Below are positions 47,260 through 62,943 of a DNA stretch of 64,000 nucleotides, one piece after another (positions within the stretch are counted from its first letter, which is position 1; every line of letters begins with the position of its first letter). Both the position numbers and the translations under genes were made by a program. The stretch is from the IMG/VR virus record IMGVR_UViG_3300011577_000001; one strand, given 5' to 3'. The stretch is from a virus. Taxonomy: Duplodnaviria > Caudoviricetes. The notes under the pieces were generated by a model. It saw only the letters and a list, made by a program, of their open reading frames with translations, ran no database searches and was not told where the DNA came from.

Positions 47260-49278
47260 TTAGCGGTTCCAGGTCCCGGTGAAGGGAGAGCTGAACAGGC
47301 GCGAGCCTTGTTGCTGACCGCCACCGTAGTTGAAGAAGCCACCAACGTTGTTGGCAACCAGGTGGTTCAGGTCGTAGCCACCACGCTGAGTCAGGACGTT
47401 GTTATCGTCCAGGCCCTTGGCAGGACGCACGTTCAGACCGCAACGTACGATTGCTTCGGACAGCGCGTCCATGAAGGCGTTGTCGAACGACACGCGACGA
47501 GCGAAGCCCTTGACGTGGATTTCCGAGGCCAGGAGCTGGCGCAGGATTTCCTTGCGCTGAGCCAGGCGGATTTCCAGCGGGACCTGCACGTTGCGGTGGG
47601 TTTCTTCCCAGGCTTCGACCAGTTTCGGGTTGGTCTTGCCAGCCAGGTTGAGGATGGCCAGGTAGTCGATTTCACGCAGGTCACGACGATTGCCTTCGCG
47701 ATCGTAGTAGAAGCCCAGGTGGATGCGATCCTGATCGTCGTAGCAAACCGGCTTGGTCGCGTCGAACAGTTGCTGGAAGTGACCCATGGTCAGGTTGTTG
47801 GCCGCTTGCAGGATGGCCAGACGAGCGTTCTCGTCGCCGTTGGCGGCGGCGATGTAGGTCTGGTGAATCCAGGACAGCTCGCCAACCTCGGCGATGTCGA
47901 GGGTGAAGATCAGCTTCGGCGCGATCAGGGTGTTGATGAGCTGGCGCATTTCGTTGTCACCGAAGTCGGCGGAACGAGTCGGCAGTGCATCAGGCTTGGC
48001 GTTCGGGTCACCGGTCAGGTTGACTTCGTAGCCGACAGCACCCAGGTCTTTCAGATCGACGTCGGTAGCCTTGCCCTTGTTGGCGCGCCAGGTACCGGTG
48101 TACAGCGCGTTGCGGTTCAGACCGAAGGCGGTAGACAGGGTCAGCAGTTGCAGTTCCATGTTCACGGCGTCGGTCAGGGTGTCGACCGAGGTCATCACCA
48201 GACGCGGCTGGTACATCTGAGTCGCCATCATTTGCTGCTGGCCGAACATACCGAAGGCGTTCTGCTGCGGCTGGAAGCCCGCTTGTGCCGGTTGGTACAT
48301 CAGGTCAACGTACGCACCCACGCGGGTGAGCTGACGGGTTTGTTGCAGGCTGAACTGCGAGTCGGCTTGGGACTGCGCGGACATGGTGACGATGATGTCT
48401 TCACGTACCGGCATGCCAACCAGGTCTTCGCCGTGCTGACGAGTGAACTCGACACGCGCGCTCAGTTGGTCACCAGCGCCGACTTCGCCCAGGGTGAACG
48501 GCTCTTCGGTGCCGCCGAGCTGGTTGTCCATGATGGTGTAGCAGGCCTGGGTGCTGTTGTGCAGCAGGCGGTTGAAGCGGTTCTCGGTGCTGACTTCGGC
48601 TTCGGCCGGGATCACGATGCCACCGGCGTCGTGGACCTGAGCGTTCATGCCGTAGGTGTTGATGACGAACTGCTCCAGAACTTGCCAGTACGACTTGTTC
48701 AGGTAGATGTCACCCGGTACGATGTCGACTTCGACGGTGGTGCCGCCCAGGTTGACGCTGTTCGGGTCCAGCGGCGCACCGCTCGATTCGATCAGCATGC
48801 TGTAGACCGCGATGTGGTCTTGGCCCTGGAAGTTCTCGTGGTAGCAGACCAGGATGCTGGAGAAGGTCACCTTGGACTGGTTGTTGTCCAGTACCAGGAT
48901 GTTGAATTCCTTCTTCTGCTGTTCGGTCAGCACTTTGGCGGCGCGTTCTTTCAGACCGGTCTGGATGGTCTGCACGTCTTCGCCGGACATGTTACGAGGA
49001 ACCGGACGGCGGTGGTTGGCGTTGACGTCGAGGACCGAACGGCCACGGCTGCCGACGCGAGAGTTTTGCTGGTTCATCTGAGCACCTGCGTTGAAAGGTT
49101 GTTGCGGTTGAGCGTTACCGCCAGTCGGCTGTTGCTGACCACCGGCTGGTTGTTGTGCTTGCTGGGTCTGATCAGCACCCTGCGGATTGAGGCCTGCTTT
49201 CAGCATGGCTTCTGCCATTGCGCTGTTCGCAGGTTGGTTCGACTGGCTCTGGCCAGGTTGGTTACGTTTGACGGACAT
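47260..49278 (-). CDS. chmA: Chimallin (phage nuclear shell protein)
   Basis: About 672 aa directly upstream of the nvRNAP catalytic gene; Q-rich N-terminus, GMPVREDI, HLGFY...G..RDLREIDYLA; strongly biased codons; SD AAGGA. Confidence 0.88.
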   Translation of the reverse strand: MSVKRNQPGQSQSNQPANSAMAEAMLKAGLNPQGADQTQQAQQPAGGQQQPTGGNAQPQQPFNAGAQMNQQNSRVGSRGRSVLDVNANHRRPVPRNMSGEDVQTIQTGLKERAAKVLTEQQKKEFNILVLDNNQSKVTFSSILVCYHENFQGQDHIAVYSMLIESSGAPLDPNSVNLGGTTVEVDIVPGDIYLNKSYWQVLEQFVINTYGMNAQVHDAGGIVIPAEAEVSTENRFNRLLHNSTQACYTIMDNQLGGTEEPFTLGEVGAGDQLSARVEFTRQHGEDLVGMPVREDIIVTMSAQSQADSQFSLQQTRQLTRVGAYVDLMYQPAQAGFQPQQNAFGMFGQQQMMATQMYQPRLVMTSVDTLTDAVNMELQLLTLSTAFGLNRNALYTGTWRANKGKATDVDLKDLGAVGYEVNLTGDPNAKPDALPTRSADFGDNEMRQLINTLIAPKLIFTLDIAEVGELSWIHQTYIAAANGDENARLAILQAANNLTMGHFQQLFDATKPVCYDDQDRIHLGFYYDREGNRRDLREIDYLAILNLAGKTNPKLVEAWEETHRNVQVPLEIRLAQRKEILRQLLASEIHVKGFARRVSFDNAFMDALSEAIVRCGLNVRPAKGLDDNNVLTQRGGYDLNHLVANNVGGFFNYGGGQQQGSRLFSSPFTGTWNR

Positions 49279-49358
49279 CTCGTGTTCCTTTTCATTGGGG
49301 TTGAGCACTACGACACACCATTTGCCTATGCTCTATTTATTTACATTGGGCATGGTGT

Positions 49359-51006: not shown

Positions 51007-51050
51007 GAAACGGGGAAGCCGCAAGGCCTCCCCGTTTCCCTTTATGCCGC
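51007..51050. terminator. Terminator between convergent genes
   Basis: GAAACGGGGA.GCC-GCAA-GGC.TCCCCGTTTC. Confidence 0.75.
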
Positions 51051-53270
51051 GGTAGACGCTGGAACAAAGTCCGAAACCAACTTGGTATTATTGTCGTTAG
51101 ACAAGAACACGCCGAGCGATTCCAAGATCAGATAGAACGGTCGGACTGTAGAGTATACCAGTTTGCGAATGTTCATTGCTGACAGCACTTCTTTTGGTAG
51201 ACCTGTCAACTCCACTACGTCCTTAGGCAGCAGCAACGTGGTAGCGTTGGTTTTGCCAGCGTAAGTCGCAGTAAGGGTTTCTTTGATCTGCGGATCTTCG
51301 ATACCATCCAACCAGAGTTGCAGTGCCGTTTTGTTCGGCAGGTCGAGGGATACCTTGATCGCTTGGTACGGCGGCTTTGGAGCCTCGCCGTATTTTGGAC
51401 GGAACACTCGCTCCCACAGGAGGTAGTGTTGGTATGGTGACTGGCCTGGGTTTGCATAAGCAGCCGGGTCTTTCACCGAAGTCCGTGCCAGGTAAGTCGA
51501 TTCAGCACGCATCACAGAACCGATAATGCCGTGTTCGATATCTGCCACACGTTGCATGATCTCGGTGATGCTGATCTTCTTACCGTCGATTACAGTATCC
51601 ATGATCTCGCACATGGTGGCCGTAACCTGTTTCATGATTGCTGGAGGACAGTTCGAGTCTTTGAGGTAAACCCCTTTGATCTCTTCTTCCAACTCAGCAA
51701 ACACGTTCCCTTCTTTGGCTGCCTTGTAGGCGTAGTAATGCTTAGCCATCGAAGTCAGCGAGAACACCGAGAAAGCAAACTCGTTCTTCATCGCCAGTAC
51801 GTTCAGCTTGTCTGGTACCACACCGAGTGTAGTCGACAGCATAGCCAACACGTGGATGATCGACTGCGTAGCCAGGTAAACCATGGTGTAGTCCACGGCA
51901 AAAGCGGTTTCGCTAAAGTCAATCTTACCGGTGTACCACTCAACCCAGTTCTGCACGGTGAAGATCGTGGAGTCTGTGTCGGAGGTGATCGCAACGTGAC
52001 GGACAGAATCTCGAATCCATGCAACCGAAGCAGGCATGTTGTCGGATACCCAAAACGCTTTGATCAGGTACTGGTAGTCGTTCAGTACAGCGTGGATGTT
52101 CTTGATGGTCGCACCGATCAAGCAGTAGTTCGCAGGATTGACTTCCAACAAACGACCCAGACCCAAGCCTTGTAGCTCCTTAGCGCACAGGAGGCTCACA
52201 AACGCTTTTAAGTCTGCATCCATACCCTTGACATAGACTTTCGCTTCTTCAAGCTCCAGCGGCACCTCAGCCTTCATAGAGAGGCGTGCCATGAACACCC
52301 GCATTGGTCCGTCGTTGTACTTCGCTAGATGCCAGCAATCGCCGACATACGCAAAGGCCGAACGTTGCAGATCGTTCATCCCTTCAACCAGCTTACGGAT
52401 TTCCGCAATCTGACTTTTGTTGTTCCAGTAGTGGTGGGTGGAGTACAGGATCAGCTCCATGACTTCATCCACGGTCGGAGCACGGAAACCGTACAGCGAC
52501 ATGGCTTTCTCGATCAACTCATAGTCAACATGACCAATGATGCTGACGATGTTAGCCTTCACTACATCAGGACACCAGTAGTGACGGTTACCGGCCAAGA
52601 ACTTCTCGTTGTTGGCGTTCCCCAAACTGGTAGCCACTCGACAGGTCGAAGTCAGGCTCGAGTGAGCAGACTTGTTGTGCAGAATGGTGGAGGTCGACGC
52701 CTGTGCCCCGGACAGACTGTTGTTGGCAATCTTGTACGTAGTCTGTTCGTTCTCCTTGAGTTCCGCCAGTTCTTCCATCTGAGTGGCGTGTCTGCGAAAC
52801 TTTGCCGCGGCAACGGTATCGCCTGATTTCTCAGCCTCGGCTGCTTTCAGGTTCGATTCTTGTTGCTCCATCTGTGCATTGTGACCTTCCTTCTTCACAG
52901 CACCCCGGCCGACGATGTTACCGGTGATGTATTCCGACAACAGGGACGGAATAACGTCTGGGTGTTCGTACACAGTCATGGACGGTGCAAACAACCAGTT
53001 GTTGTCCTTGATGTCCTTGAGGTAAGTTGAGTAGGTCATCTCCGTACGCTCACGGTCACCGACTTTGTTGCGGTGCAGGCAGTACAGAGCTGGGTCTTTG
53101 ATCTCGAATTTACCACCAGGACCTGTCACGCGATGAATGTAAGCCTGACAGTCTTCCAACGGCTTCCCCGTACGGACATGCAAGAATATCGCCATGTCTC
53201 GACGGTAGTTAGCCAGAATATCGAGGTCTCGCTTATAAGCGGACGCTGGCTTGATGAAATGGTTTTCCAT
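51042..53270 (-). CDS. Split family-B DNA polymerase, polymerase subunit (phiKZ gp50-like)
   Basis: Motif B KIANNSLSG, motif C SDTDS, KHYY..KGV. Confidence 0.88.
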   Translation of the reverse strand: MENHFIKPASAYKRDLDILANYRRDMAIFLHVRTGKPLEDCQAYIHRVTGPGGKFEIKDPALYCLHRNKVGDRERTEMTYSTYLKDIKDNNWLFAPSMTVYEHPDVIPSLLSEYITGNIVGRGAVKKEGHNAQMEQQESNLKAAEAEKSGDTVAAAKFRRHATQMEELAELKENEQTTYKIANNSLSGAQASTSTILHNKSAHSSLTSTCRVATSLGNANNEKFLAGNRHYWCPDVVKANIVSIIGHVDYELIEKAMSLYGFRAPTVDEVMELILYSTHHYWNNKSQIAEIRKLVEGMNDLQRSAFAYVGDCWHLAKYNDGPMRVFMARLSMKAEVPLELEEAKVYVKGMDADLKAFVSLLCAKELQGLGLGRLLEVNPANYCLIGATIKNIHAVLNDYQYLIKAFWVSDNMPASVAWIRDSVRHVAITSDTDSTIFTVQNWVEWYTGKIDFSETAFAVDYTMVYLATQSIIHVLAMLSTTLGVVPDKLNVLAMKNEFAFSVFSLTSMAKHYYAYKAAKEGNVFAELEEEIKGVYLKDSNCPPAIMKQVTATMCEIMDTVIDGKKISITEIMQRVADIEHGIIGSVMRAESTYLARTSVKDPAAYANPGQSPYQHYLLWERVFRPKYGEAPKPPYQAIKVSLDLPNKTALQLWLDGIEDPQIKETLTATYAGKTNATTLLLPKDVVELTGLPKEVLSAMNIRKLVYSTVRPFYLILESLGVFLSNDNNTKLVSDFVPASTAA

Positions 53271-53362
53271 TAGTGCTCCCGAAAGCGGTAGTCCCACATT
53301 CTATTACCCACGGACAGATTTAAATACAGACGTCATAAAAGGAGGCCGAAGCCTCCCTCTAT

Positions 53363-55154: not shown

Positions 55155-55189
55155 GGGAAATCCTCGTCATAAAGCGAGGGCCAATGCCC

Positions 55190-56955: not shown

Positions 56956-57306
56956 TCATTTACTGAACAAGTACAACCCAGTTGTGAGGATCTCCAAACG
57001 AAGTTCTCCTTCCGGGATGTGATGGTAACCGCATGAGGTTATCAATTTGAACAAACGCTCTCGAAGTAGGTTAGACGAATCCATGTCGTGGATAGTTCTC
57101 AGAACAGGAACCGAAGTCTCCTGTTTAATGCTGAGTAGTGTACAGGATTCGATTACATCGATAACCCATGCACGTTCTATCACACCGACTGTAGTCATGA
57201 AATCGCATCCAGGAAACAGATCGCGATTCTTCGAGAGAGCCTGCACAACCTCACCATGTATCAACGGTTGTATGTTGCGATAATCCGCAACCAATTGAAG
57301 GCCCAT
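56956..57306 (-). CDS. Hypothetical protein, first gene of an early operon
   Basis: 116 aa after the promoter motif. Confidence 0.65.
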   Translation of the reverse strand: MGLQLVADYRNIQPLIHGEVVQALSKNRDLFPGCDFMTTVGVIERAWVIDVIESCTLLSIKQETSVPVLRTIHDMDSSNLLRERLFKLITSCGYHHIPEGELRLEILTTGLYLFSK

Positions 57307-57332
57307 AGTTTCTTACCTTTCTGAAGGTTAGT

Positions 57333-57352
57333 CACTTGGATAATATAGGTCT
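57333..57352 (-). promoter_or_regulatory. Early promoter
   Basis: AGACCTATATTATCCAAGTG. Confidence 0.7.
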
Positions 57353-57451
57353 AAAACTTATTGGGATGGCGTCTATGACGCTTTCTCTATAGGATCAGGG
57401 GTATGTGTCAATTTAAACAGTCTGTTGCTTAAAACGCAAAATAGACGGCAT

Positions 57452-58100
57452 AAAAGGTAAATCCCCACAACGCACCCCGCGGACACGAGGAGCGCCGTGG
57501 GGCGCCTCACCAACAACACAAGGTCCGCTTAGGAGGACGGACATGAAGCGACACCCGGATCGCTTCCCTAAACACACTCAGTCAAGGTCGGCCGCCAGAG
57601 AACCGAGAGTGTTTAAGGCTGCGGTCAAGACGCTAAATCCCGTCGATGGTTAACGGGAGGGTCTACAACAACAACTTGTGGGATTCGCCGTCCCACCAGA
57701 CCTTTTCAGTTACTTAGCACTTGCGAGGCGCTAAGTACTTCCTTACTGCCCCTGTGATGGAAGGTCTAGGTACACAGGAGTCCTACCCTAACACGGGTTG
57801 GATTACACGCACAAGGCGACAAGCCGCGCTCGCAGCGGCCGCCGTGCAGGTGTCAAGCAGCTTTCGCCCTTTGGGCTGTCTACACTTACAGGATGACTCG
57901 GTTCTTAGCCAAGGTCCTGATTTGGGGTTCTGTCCTGAAAGTAGTAACAGTTCCTACGACACTGGGGTTTAATCCAGGAAAGCTCAACTCAAGAGTGAGT
58001 GGGGAAGCCGAAACCTCCCAGACAGTTAATGGCCCGACGGGGTGGGGTCCTGTCCAAGGTTAGGGTAGATTAGCTCCTAACCAAGACTTTCGATACACTC
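57452..58100 (-). ncRNA. Large (~640 nt) multi-hairpin RNA ending in a terminator-like stem
   Basis: No credible ORF; continuous helices whose G-U pairs mostly favour the minus strand; UUCG loop; possible pseudoknot. Confidence 0.6.
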
Positions 58101-58105
58101 ACGTT

Positions 58106-58192
58106 TGGTACCCGAAGTCGGACTCGAACCGACATGGCTCAAGGCCGTCGCATTTTAAGTGCGGTGCGTCTCACCAATTTCACCATTCGGGC
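58106..58192 (-). tRNA. trnL: tRNA-Leu(UAA)
   Basis: GCCCGAA acceptor, CT-TAA-AA loop, long variable arm, TTCGAGT, CCA. Confidence 0.92.
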
Positions 58193-58195
58193 AAA

Positions 58196-58271
58196 TGGGT
58201 GCCTTCTCTACTTTGCCAGGTAAGGGTTCTTTGTTTCCACGCGCAGATCCACTCATTGACGAGAGAAGACA
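58196..58271 (-). ncRNA. 76-nt rod-like RNA ending in CCA
   Basis: TGTCTTCTCT/AGAGAAGGCA 10-bp terminal stem then C-CCA; no D or T arm. Confidence 0.4.
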
Positions 58272-58276
58272 TTGAA

Positions 58277-58376
58277 AGGGGTCCCCTGATGGATTCGAAC
58301 CACCGACCGTCGCATCCATTCTGTCCCAGGTTTGGACCAAGATGCACAACTCTAACCGACTGAGTTTAAGGAGACC
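58277..58376 (-). ncRNA. tRNA-like RNA with expanded anticodon arm
   Basis: 8-bp acceptor GGTCTCCT/AGGGGACC, D arm AACTC..GGTTA-GAGTT, T arm GGTGG-TTCGAAT-CCATC; 24-nt insert between TGCATC and GATGCG. Confidence 0.7.
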
Positions 58377-58453
58377 ATCAACTGAATTCCCTGGGGAACC
58401 TTAATCGACTTGGAAGCCATTCAAAGTTTGATGGGAGACTCCCCAAGGGAAAG

Positions 58454-58541: not shown

Positions 58542-58747
58542 GAAAATCAAGCCAGGGCTATTCCCTGGAGTCACTCCCATGGCTAGGCACCATGACCGAT
58601 TAGAGCGAGGTCCTAAGCGAAACCGATCGGCACGGTTACTCGCTTACTCTTTCGAGTACGGATGTCTAGGCGTCTCGTTGTGTGAGCAACGATCCACTCG
58701 CCCGCAGGACAGGGCCACCAGCAGGGCAGGCGCTTGGTGTTCCTTGG

Positions 58748-58843
58748 TCAGGCTTTCGCCCGAGACAGCAGTTTCAGCATTCCTTTCGGGATATGCTTAG
58801 TCTTCGCTTTACGACGAGGACTGTAGAACGGAAAACCAGGCAT
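58748..58843 (-). CDS. 31-aa basic peptide MPGFPFYSPRRKAKTKHIPKGMLKLLSRAKA
   Basis: Preceded by CTAAGAAGGA, the same RBS used by the genes starting at 19651 and 20392. Confidence 0.5.
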   Translation of the reverse strand: MPGFPFYSPRRKAKTKHIPKGMLKLLSRAKA

Positions 58844-58864
58844 GGCTCTCTCCTTCTTAGAAAG

Positions 58865-58952: not shown

Positions 58953-58970
58953 GTGAAAGGTAAAGCAAAG

Positions 58971-59125
58971 TTCAATCAATACCCGGTGTGTGGTATCTTT
59001 TCGTTTACAGATCTGGTGGCCCAGCCAGGATTTCGGGTTGTACCTGGAATGCTACCTTGGAGGGTAGAGTTATACCTTTCGGCGTTTTTAACTATTGGGC
59101 CTTTCTTACCACACCACTGATTGAA
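58971..59125 (-). ncRNA. Cloverleaf-in-a-stem RNA, copy 1
   Basis: Outer stem TTCAATCAGT..GTGTGGTA/TACCACAC..ATTGATTGAA encloses a tRNA-like unit at 59014-59101 ending GGCC-ACCA. Confidence 0.6.
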
Positions 59126-59148
59126 TCCCGCGAGGGAACTTCCAAACA

Positions 59149-59304
59149 GATAGACAAGATTCCTTTGTAACGCGTATTGTATTCGCTCTCTTTCAAACGA
59201 GTGGCCAGGGGAGCCTTCGGACCCTACTCCCACGTGGAACCCCGGTTGGTGGGGCTGCTTTAGAGCTTTTAGCGACTGGCCTTTCTACGTTACCGCTGTC
59301 TATC
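59149..59304 (-). ncRNA. Cloverleaf-in-a-stem RNA, copy 2
   Basis: Outer stem GATAGACA..GTAACG/CGTTAC..TGTCTATC encloses GGCCAG-(three hairpins)-CTGGCC-AC at 59203-59281. Confidence 0.55.
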
Positions 59305-59307
59305 AAA

Positions 59308-59421
59308 ATCACAAGCAGTAGATTTCACCGTACCGTCGGCTGTGATGTTACTTTCTACTTGCCTAGGCTTTCGCCTTGATTCCCTGCATCCAGACTCGCG
59401 TTACTGGATACTGCTTGTGAT
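59308..59421 (-). ncRNA. Structured RNA closed by a perfect 13-bp stem
   Basis: ATCACAAGCAGTA/TACTGCTTGTGAT; inner TCCAG/CTGGA and AGGC-GAAA-GCCT. Confidence 0.5.
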
Positions 59422-59463
59422 CTTTGTCAACCATCTTGTCGAGGACGACAACACAGTCGAACA

Positions 59464-60776: not shown

Positions 60777-60853
60777 TGGCTGGGATAGTTGGGCTCGAAC
60801 CAACGACCTGGTGATTAACAGTCACCCGCTACTACCAACTGAGCTATATCCCA
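60777..60853 (-). tRNA. trnN: tRNA-Asn(GUU)
   Basis: GGTGA-CT-GTT-AA-TCACC; GCCA. Confidence 0.93.
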
Positions 60854-61356
60854 TTATAACGAATACCAAGAGCTACCCGACGAACCGTGTCTTTACCGAT
60901 TTCAAACTCCCGAGCAATTGCTCGATAGCTCATGGTACCGACCAGTTCAAGGATAGCCTTGACTGACTCTTCATCAAGCGCAGCATGTGGGCTGTCAAAC
61001 CCTTTCTTGCCTTCATACAAACCTAAGGCTTGCGCATGATCAATATTACCTTGATGCGTTACCCACTCCAAGTTATCCCACCGGTTATTTGTCTTATCCG
61101 TGTCCTTATGGTTCACGAAGGGAAGATTCAACGGGTTAGGGACAAAAGCCTTGGCCACTTGTACATGAGCCCTTAAACAGAACGACTTACCTTTCCTTCC
61201 TCCTATCTTGGAGGCGTGAGTAAGATAGCCATTATGGTTGGGCGTCAGTGCCAAATCTTGGAACGTGCGAATGCTAAACAGTGTCCCGAAATTGCCGATC
61301 ATGAAGAGATCAGGGTAGTCAGGACATTCCGTGAAGACTTCAAATTCATACGACAT
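60844..61356 (-). CDS. HNH homing endonuclease (I-HmuI-like, C-terminal HTH)
   Basis: HVQVAKAFVPN..FVNHKDTDKTNNRWDNLEWVT..N..HA; stop codon lies inside tRNA-Asn. Confidence 0.9.
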   Translation of the reverse strand: MSYEFEVFTECPDYPDLFMIGNFGTLFSIRTFQDLALTPNHNGYLTHASKIGGRKGKSFCLRAHVQVAKAFVPNPLNLPFVNHKDTDKTNNRWDNLEWVTHQGNIDHAQALGLYEGKKGFDSPHAALDEESVKAILELVGTMSYRAIAREFEIGKDTVRRVALGIRYNGI

Positions 61357-62499: not shown

Positions 62500-62633
62500 T
62501 GGCCCCGCTACGTGGACTCGAACCACGGACCTCCCGCTGGCACGCGCATTCAAACGTCATCACTGCCGGAAGGGCTGCTAGCGACGTAACCGCATGTCTA
62601 ACGAGTGCTCTAACCAACTGAGCTATAGCCGGG
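62500..62633 (-). ncRNA. tRNA body whose anticodon loop is replaced by a 63-nt structured extension
   Basis: TAGCTCAGTTGGTTAGAGCA D arm, AGGTC-CGTGG-TTCGAGT-CCACG T arm, GCCA end; insert between CTCGT and GCGGG. Confidence 0.8.
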
Positions 62634-62636
62634 ATG

Positions 62637-62871
62637 TGAGAGAAGGCCGCTACCCCGATCTACGGGCCGTGATACTCTCGGGGACTCAGGCGAAAGGGAA
62701 CCAAAAGCCTAAGAACTGCGGTATGCAAGCGCAGTCGTCTATTACCCCAGAGTCGGGTCGCAATATCATTCGATGGTGTGTGGGGTCCGTCAAGTCTCCA
62801 CGTTCCCTCTCGGTGGCGAAACCAAGAGCGTGCTGGAACTTACCATTCAAACAAATCACGTCATTCTCTCA
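62637..62871. ncRNA. 235-nt multibranch structured element at the head of the RNA island
   Basis: TGAGAGAA/TTCTCTCA closing stem; ACTCT.GGGG/CCCCAGAGT, ACTGCG/CGCAGT and GTTCC/GGAAC helices; strand ambiguous. Confidence 0.45.
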
Positions 62872-62914
62872 TGATATCATTGAGCTATGTATTTTTTTAC
62901 TGCATTTGTAGGGA

Positions 62915-62943
62915 CAAAAAAAAGAGGGCCCCGAAGAGCCCCG
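62915..62943 (-). terminator. Terminator after an early gene
   Basis: GGGCTC-TTCG-GGGCCC then TCT8 on the minus strand. Confidence 0.8.

What the first reader, a model, noticed from the sequence alone, without database searches (positions are those of the whole stretch)
57452..58100. ~640-nt ornate RNA at the 3' end of the tRNA operon
Seen: back-to-back helices, e.g. CCTTAAACAC(57618-57609)/GTGTTTAGGG(57575-57566), CCCCACGGCGC/GCGTTGTGGGG, TACTTAGCG/TGCTAAGTA and a UUCG loop. A possible pseudoknot: CTCCTGTG/CACAGGGG encloses AGACCTT, which can pair with AAGGTCT at 57704-57698. It ends in a long stem plus TTTT. Known: size and context match the GOLLD/ROOL class, but I cannot recognise their sequence. 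A short stretch (CCTAGAC.TCC..AGTAAG..AGTA) recurs near 58635-58670, hinting at a paralogous RNA.
Basis: partly seen in the sequence, partly recalled or inferred. Interest (0 to 1): 0.75.

Follow-up and report, generated by a model that had tools for sequence, protein, structure and literature searches.

The report
New giant phage RNA beside tRNAs
A nucleus-forming jumbo phage encodes a 650-base, intricately folded non-coding RNA right after its tRNA genes; it belongs to no described RNA family and looks like a new cousin-in-kind of the mysterious GOLLD and ROOL RNAs.

Summary
Window 58102→57452 on the minus strand (651 nt) is a real structured non-coding RNA. It starts 4 nt after tRNA-Leu(UAA) and ends in a terminator-like hairpin.

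Thirteen further loci were aligned: five other IMG/VR records and eight further metagenome contigs. They fall into three subclades, with RNAs of about 650-855 nt.
- The predicted fold holds across them: 210 pairs, 94.7% of cells paired, and 58 pairs with compensatory changes, against 2-10 in slid controls.
- About ten pairs are G·U in every sequence, which fixes the strand as that of the tRNAs.
- No ORF is conserved.
- The RNA is 84-90% identical where the next gene is 71% or less.

No Rfam 15 family matches even at E≤10, including GOLLD, ROOL, RNase P, tmRNA and the introns. Covariance models of the 5' core found it only in the closest clade (DNA polymerase ≥81% identical), not in 47 other relatives of this phage.

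The host genome is a chimallivirus. The best reading is a new family of large ornate phage RNA, made with the tRNA transcript and acting as a free folded RNA, perhaps self-associating. Its function is unknown. The paralogue hint is not supported. The scan has not found this RNA on other DNA.

The parts
57452..58102 (-). The whole RNA (651 nt), from the 5' strand of helix P1 to the U-rich tail after the terminal hairpin
   Evidence: Homologs align over this span. Covariation runs along the full length. No Rfam match. No conserved ORF.
57995..58102 (-). Domain D1. Helix P1 (GUGAGUG 58102-58096 with CACUCAC 58001-57995) encloses four elements: a GNRA-capped hairpin (58092-58087), a hairpin with a conserved 11-nt loop (58082-58058), a GGACAG/CUGUCU helix, and the UUCG hairpin (58019-58002).
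   Evidence: The GNRA loop varies GAAA/GUAA/GCAA at the same site. Model R2 scores 136 bits here and finds nothing else in the window.
57859..57984 (-). Domain D2, closed by AGCUUUC/GAAAGCU. This is the most conserved part of the RNA.
   Evidence: Four of the seven closing pairs are compensatory. Model R1 was built on this domain.
57918..57960 (-). A 43-nt block that is nearly invariant, GUCGUAGGAAcuGUUACUACUUUyAGGACagAACCCCAAAUCA
   Evidence: It is invariant in subclades A and B. In subclade C, CUG/CAG changes to UGG/CCA in a compensatory way. A pattern scan finds it in only 5 other IMG/VR contigs.
57815..57843 (-). Hairpin capped by a GCGA tetraloop
   Evidence: Helix 16: 99% of cells paired.
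57749..57780 (-). Hairpin whose loop (AGACCUU, 57767-57761) forms the 5' half of the pseudoknot
   Evidence: helices 19 and 20.
57698..57704 (-). 3' half of the pseudoknot (AAGGUCU)
   Evidence: Complementarity is kept through four compensated variants across the subclades.
57711..57737 (-). Hairpin UACUUAGCG/UGCUAAGUA with a loop that contains C-GCAA-G
   Evidence: Four of its eight pairs are compensatory (helix 21).
57678..57696 (-). Hairpin GUGGGA/UCCCAC with a CGGCGAA loop
   Evidence: Four of its six pairs are compensatory (helix 22).
57566..57618 (-). Long hairpin with an invariant self-complementary GGCC at its tip (57593-57590)
   Evidence: Helix 25 (23 pairs), of which this hairpin is the main part, has eight compensatory pairs. 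GGCC is invariant in all 11 sequences. Its flanks read CGGCCG, AGUGGCCACU or GUCUGGCCAGAC.
57463..57502 (-). Terminal hairpin, terminator-like, followed by AUUUACCUUUU
   Evidence: The stem sequence differs between subclades but still pairs (helix 28).
57446..57454 (-). TTTATGCCG, the start signal of the next transcription unit; it overlaps the RNA's tail
   Evidence: The motif occurs 22 times in the window against 9 expected, mostly at gene boundaries. phiKZ late promoters are TATG, with transcription starting at the G (PMC4666361).
58106..58192 (-). tRNA-Leu(UAA), directly upstream on the same strand
57307..57445 (-). Highly conserved non-coding block in front of the next gene (ORF 56956-57306). 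It is not part of the RNA.
   Evidence: 79-94% identical in the ten loci compared, more conserved than the ORF it precedes.

Best explanation
This is the gene for a large, compactly folded non-coding RNA of a family that has not been described. It is carried by one genus-level group of nucleus-forming jumbo phages (chimalliviruses).

How it is made (inferred):
- It is transcribed on the tRNA strand as the last part of the tRNA-island transcript.
- It is freed at its 5' end when tRNA-Leu is processed. In some relatives it instead follows a small nuclease gene.
- It ends at its own terminator-like hairpin.

What it looks like (shown):
- A strongly conserved 5' core of about 245 nt (domains D1 and D2).
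- A pseudoknot and several GNRA-capped hairpins.
- A more variable 3' half that grows from 651 to about 855 nt in one subclade.

How it most likely works (inferred): it acts in trans as a free-standing folded RNA, in the manner of GOLLD and ROOL. It may self-associate through the invariant self-complementary GGCC loop. It probably serves something linked to the phage's tRNAs or translation, or acts as a decoy against host factors.

My odds: a real structured RNA gene, about 0.93. A trans-acting free RNA rather than a cis element, about 0.6. Self-association, about 0.3.
For: - Covariation: 58 of 210 pairs are compensatory, against 2-10 in slid controls, with 94.7% of cells paired. In the 5' core, 19 of 60 pairs are compensatory and 99.2% of cells pair.
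- The pseudoknot covaries.
- About ten pairs are G·U in every sequence, so only the minus strand can form the fold.
- GNRA loops interchange at fixed sites.
- No ORF is shared among the homologs.
- The RNA is 84-90% identical in loci where the adjacent ORF is 71% or less.
- No promoter-type motif lies between the tRNAs and the RNA; a hairpin plus TATG motif follows it.
- The host genome encodes the nuclear shell protein.
- GOLLD and ROOL are likewise phage RNAs near tRNA islands, and they form homo-oligomers (PMC12286853).
Against: - There is no expression data.
- The family is narrow. It appears in only 6 IMG/VR records plus some metagenome contigs, and in no genome whose polymerase is 63% identical or less. 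It is therefore dispensable for chimalliviruses in general.
- Nothing here shows self-association or any partner. GGCC could equally be a tertiary or protein contact.
- In two subclades the RNA follows a protein gene, so it could be that gene's 3' UTR.
Confidence: 0.6

Rival explanations
1. It is a cis-acting part of the tRNA-island transcript. It could be a long structured trailer that blocks 3' exonucleases, guides processing, or insulates the tRNA unit from the next promoter.
For: It is fused to the tRNA array with no promoter of its own. It ends in a terminator directly before a conserved promoter-like block. In subclade C and part of subclade B it sits behind a nuclease ORF, like a 3' UTR.
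Against: A protective trailer does not need 650-855 nt, a nearly invariant 43-nt block, a covarying pseudoknot and many GNRA loops. Other units in this phage end with a simple hairpin.
Confidence: 0.15
2. It is a new ribozyme, or the RNA subunit of a phage ribonucleoprotein. For example, it might cleave itself from the tRNA transcript, or guide or scaffold a phage protein.
For: The long invariant stretches, pseudoknot and GNRA loops are typical of catalytic or protein-bound RNAs.
Against: No known ribozyme family matches. No RNA-binding or partner protein could be recognised among the neighbours. No cleavage site can be inferred from the sequence.
Confidence: 0.12
3. It is a very divergent member of a known family: GOLLD, ROOL, RNase P RNA, tmRNA, or a group I or II intron.
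For: Its size and tRNA-side setting match GOLLD and ROOL. A short string, ACAGAACCC, recalls RNase P RNA; that comparison is from memory only.
Against: cmscan against all 4227 Rfam families gave only chance hits of 13-16 bits on the 716-nt stretch at E≤10. ARAGORN finds no tmRNA. The conserved part is at the 5' end, whereas in GOLLD it is at the 3' end. There are no interrupted flanking exons.
Confidence: 0.04
4. It is hidden coding sequence or a decayed gene.
For: Stop-free stretches of 51-163 codons occur in individual homologs.
Against: These stretches differ in strand, frame and position between homologs. Indels are not in multiples of three. Substitutions are compensatory across helices.
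Confidence: 0.02

Closest known systems
[quoted passage not shown]
   Same: Both are phage-encoded and lie next to a tRNA island. Both are about 650-850 nt, have an elaborate fold with pseudoknots, and consist of a conserved half plus a variable half. The function of both is unknown (PMC12286853).
   Different: There is no match to the Rfam model. The conserved part here is at the 5' end, not the 3' end. The host is a chimallivirus found in environmental metagenomes. Oligomer formation has not been tested.
ROOL RNA (rumen-originating, ornate, large)
   Same: Both occur in phages or prophages, often near tRNA islands. Both have multiple pseudoknots and no known protein partner.
   Different: There is no match to the Rfam model, and the sequence and helices are unrelated. 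ROOL forms a nanocage; the assembly state here is unknown.
Stable RNAs of the phage T4 tRNA cluster (species 1 and 2). Cited from my own knowledge, not checked here.
   Same: They are non-tRNA RNAs co-transcribed with phage tRNAs and released by tRNA processing, and their function is unknown.
   Different: The T4 RNAs are roughly 140 nt or less, not 650 nt, and no sequence relation was seen.
Small non-coding RNAs reported in phiKZ
   Same: They are non-coding RNAs of a chimallivirus (PMC10914365).
   Different: They are UTR-derived species of 71-196 nt. No large ornate RNA is described there.

Membership tests
GOLLD | Match to the Rfam covariance model | tested here: not met
   No hit at the gathering score or at E≤10. 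Rfam holds a GOLLD profile.
GOLLD | Universally conserved 3' region with a less conserved 5' region | tested here: not met
   Here the 5' domains D1 and D2 are conserved in all three subclades, while the 3' half varies and expands.
GOLLD | Encoded in phages or prophages near tRNA genes | tested here: met
   It lies 4 nt after tRNA-Leu in a phage record.
GOLLD | Forms a 14-mer nanocage | not testable with these tools
   This needs cryo-EM or mass photometry.
ROOL | Match to the Rfam covariance model | tested here: not met
   No hit at E≤10.
ROOL | Phage or prophage setting near tRNA islands | tested here: met
RNase P RNA | Match to any Rfam RNase P model | tested here: not met
   No hit. The ACAGAACCC resemblance is one short string.
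tmRNA | tRNA-like ends plus a tag reading frame | tested here: not met
   ARAGORN and Rfam find none.
Group I / group II intron | Match to the intron models and an interrupted host gene | tested here: not met
   No Rfam hit. The flanks are a complete tRNA and a promoter block.
Large ornate phage non-coding RNAs (a descriptive class, not a homologous family) | More than 500 nt, no coding capacity, many covarying helices and pseudoknots, encoded by a phage | tested here: met

The most novel reading that the evidence does not exclude
A new class of giant RNA specific to nucleus-forming phages. It would assemble with itself, through the invariant GGCC loop and GNRA contacts, into a multi-copy RNA particle. 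That particle would handle or shield phage tRNAs or ribosomes, or soak up a host defence factor. Alternatively, it is a new ribozyme.
Probability: 0.2. Interest if true: 0.9.

Novelty: new variant of a known kind. Interest (0 to 1): 0.68.

Why it matters
Very few large ornate RNAs are known in bacteria and phages, such as GOLLD, ROOL, OLE and raiA. Three of them (GOLLD, ROOL and OLE) were recently shown to form RNA-only assemblies, yet the function of these classes remains unknown. An unrelated family in the same setting, a phage tRNA island, would be an independent example of the same habit. That strengthens the idea that phages pair big folded RNAs with their tRNAs for a shared purpose.

It would also be the first RNA of this size that I could find reported for a chimallivirus. 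In these phages transcription happens inside a protein shell and translation outside it, which raises the question of where such an RNA acts. The family is small and well delimited, and its fold is supported by covariation. It is therefore ready for structure work.

Tried and rejected
- BLAST of the region against 50,697 phage records matched only the tRNA.
- Models R1 and R2 found the RNA in 3 more close relatives but in none of 47 other records of phages with a related DNA polymerase. With filters off they also found nothing in the polymerase-upstream regions of the next three lineages.
- I first took ORF-poor stretches in the lineages with 63% and 57% polymerase identity for positional counterparts. 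Their shared 19-nt block instead matches window 62647-62665, in the leader at the other end of the tRNA island. They are a different element.
- In Xanthomonas phage Xoo-sp14, two gaps left unannotated folded with z about -4.5. One of them appears to hold an unannotated ORF. A z-score alone therefore does not discriminate, and I rest the case on covariation.
- The RNase P-like string ACAGAACCC and a 16S-like string were dropped, because there is no model match.
- The loop CCUCCUAAG looked like an anti-Shine-Dalgarno mimic, but it is not conserved in L023 or in subclade C.
- The paralogue hint at 58635-58670 was rejected.
- Pfam and PHROGs gave no function for the neighbouring small ORFs.

Full report
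**Setting**

The window is part of a 240-kb IMG/VR virus record. It encodes a nuclear shell protein (47260-49308) and a chimallivirus-type DNA polymerase (51042-53297). The phage is therefore a nucleus-forming jumbo phage. Its nearest cultured relatives are Xanthomonas and Burkholderia phages, at only 43-44% polymerase identity.

Eight tRNA genes lie on the minus strand between 61506 and 58106. The finding lies directly downstream of the last one, tRNA-Leu(UAA) at 58106-58192. Upstream of it in window coordinates is a run of small minus-strand ORFs that leads to the polymerase.

No ORF longer than 83 aa lies in the stretch. The minus strand folds at -268.5 kcal/mol (z = -3.8) and the plus strand at z = -2.8. 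I give the z-score little weight, because two gaps left unannotated in another phage, one of which appears to hold an unannotated ORF, scored z about -4.5.

**Homologs**

- A search of related virus records found the stretch at 83% and 73% identity.
- A pattern from its most conserved block found nine metagenome contigs.
- A covariance model found three further, more divergent copies.

The sequences fall into three subclades:
- A: the window, L023, L006, and the partial L017.
- B: L022 and L018 (same sequence in this stretch), L021, L020, L019, L007, and the partial L016.
- C: L105-L107. Here the RNA is about 855 nt, with inserts in the middle and in the 3' part.

**Structure**

On the 5' core, RNAalifold's consensus has 60 pairs. 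Of the cells, 99.2% pair, and 19 pairs carry compensatory changes, against 0-3 when partners are slid by 1-3 columns.

Over the full length in subclades A and B there are 210 pairs. Of the cells, 94.7% pair, and 58 pairs are compensatory, against 2-10 in the slid controls. No shuffle out of 500 reached the observed covariation score.

About ten pairs are G·U or U·G in all sequences. On the plus strand these would be A·C mismatches, so the RNA is read from the minus strand, like the tRNAs.

The loop and its downstream partner read as follows:

| Sequences | Loop / partner |
|---|---|
| window | AGACCUU / AAGGUCU |
| L023 | GACUU / AAGUC (a matched loss of one C and one G) |
| subclade B | UACCUU / AAGGUA |
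| L106 | AUCCU / AGGAU |
| L107 | ACCCU / AGGGU |

At one hairpin tip the loop is GAAA, GUAA or GCAA depending on the sequence, and several other loops are GNRA. Such loops are common in RNAs with tertiary folds.

**Anatomy in window coordinates, minus strand**

- D1, 58102-57995, closed by GUGAGUG/CACUCAC.
- D2, 57984-57859, holding a 43-nt nearly invariant block at 57960-57918.
- A GCGA-capped hairpin, 57843-57815.
- The pseudoknot hairpin, 57780-57749, with its partner at 57704-57698.
- Hairpins at 57737-57711 and 57696-57678.
- A long hairpin, 57618-57566.
- The terminal hairpin, 57502-57463, followed by AUUUACCUUUU.

The tip of the long hairpin carries GGCC in all 11 sequences. Its flanks read CGGCCG, AGUGGCCACU or GUCUGGCCAGAC. 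A self-complementary loop that never changes is what a kissing-loop self-contact would need. This is a lead, not a result.

**Not coding, and under selection**

The longest stop-free stretches differ in strand, frame and place between homologs. Indels are not in threes.

Against L023 the RNA is 89.6% identical while the next ORF (56956-57306) is 71.5%. Against L014 the RNA is 83.5% identical and the ORF is barely detectable.

**Ends and transcription (inferred)**

The RNA's first helix starts 4 nt after the tRNA's CCA. In part of subclade B and in all of subclade C, a small gene is inserted between tRNA-Leu and the RNA, and the RNA then starts right after its stop codon. By eye that gene resembles a staphylococcal-type nuclease.

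After the terminal hairpin comes TTTATGCCG. With one mismatch allowed, this motif occurs 22 times in the window against 9 expected, largely at gene boundaries and often just after a hairpin. phiKZ late promoters are TATG, with the G as the start site (PMC4666361). No such motif lies between about 63740 and 57454.

I therefore infer three things. The RNA is made as the tail of the tRNA-island transcript. It is released by tRNA processing. The next unit starts at about 57449.

**Comparison with known families**

cmscan against all 4227 Rfam 15 families gives nothing at the gathering scores. At E≤10 it gives only chance hits of 13-16 bits. Rfam holds GOLLD and ROOL profiles. ARAGORN sees no tmRNA.

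GOLLD and ROOL are phage RNAs that are often near tRNA islands. Their function is unknown and they form nanocages. GOLLD's conserved part is at its 3' end (PMC12286853), whereas here the conserved part is at the 5' end.

So this RNA works, or at least sits, like those RNAs but is not a member of either family. The reported phiKZ non-coding RNAs are 71-196 nt (PMC10914365).

**Distribution**

The invariant block occurs in only five other IMG/VR contigs. Models of D1 and D2 found no copy in 47 other records of phages with a related DNA polymerase, including lineages at 63% and 57% polymerase identity. The own genome has one copy.

I first took ORF-poor stretches in those two lineages for counterparts. 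Their shared block CCGTAGGACGGGGTAGCGG instead matches window 62647-62665. That lies in a roughly 300-nt leader at the start of the tRNA island, so they are a different element.

**Verdict**

This is a real RNA family, new to Rfam and to the literature I could search: large, ornate and phage-encoded, in the setting known from GOLLD and ROOL. Its function is unknown.

I think a free, trans-acting folded RNA is most likely, possibly self-associating. A cis role for the tRNA transcript and a ribozyme or ribonucleoprotein role are the main rivals. The paralogue hint is not supported.

Noticed in passing
window 62640-62930 (-): A leader of about 300 nt with no ORF of 60 aa or more on its own strand. 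It lies between a terminator and the first tRNA-like element of the island. It contains CCGTAGATCGGGGTAGCGG at 62647-62665. A near-identical 19-nt block sits in comparable ORF-poor stretches of more distant chimalliviruses (polymerase 57-63% identical). This element is therefore more widely conserved than the 650-nt RNA.
   Followed up: partly
window 62500-62628 (-): Directly after that leader comes a tRNA-like sequence. It has the D arm GCTCAGTTGGTTAGAGC and the T arm GGTTCGAGTCC, but a long insert lies between them. ARAGORN did not call it.
   Followed up: no
window 58280-58376 (-): A tRNA-like element between tRNA-Leu and tRNA-Ser. It gives only a weak tRNA-Sec model hit (20.9 bits, E = 1.1) and is not called by ARAGORN.
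   Followed up: no
window 58193-58453, 58542-58864, 58953-59463 (-): Parts of the spacers between the tRNAs are 75-90% identical in related phages, about as conserved as the tRNAs themselves.
   Followed up: partly
window, 22 sites, for example 51041-51049 (+), 53331-53339 (-), 55165-55173 (-): T(T/C)TATGCCG recurs at gene boundaries, often just after a hairpin. It is probably this phage's version of the phiKZ-type TATG promoter, coupled to terminators.
   Followed up: partly
L007:1929-2425 (-); also L019 and L105-L107: In part of subclade B and all of subclade C, a gene of about 500 nt is inserted between tRNA-Leu and the RNA. Its C-terminus reads ...LIKNGLAVAYDGGTK..., which by eye resembles a staphylococcal-type nuclease. 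The short sequence ACCA recurs at both ends of the insert.
   Followed up: no
window 60844-61356 (-): An HNH endonuclease gene lies inside the tRNA island (phrog_59, E = 5e-38).
   Followed up: no
window 57307-57445 (-): The non-coding block in front of ORF 56956-57306 is 91-94% identical in the closer relatives. That is more conserved than the ORF itself or the RNA. It includes GTTTAAATTGACA and CCTATATTATCC.
   Followed up: partly
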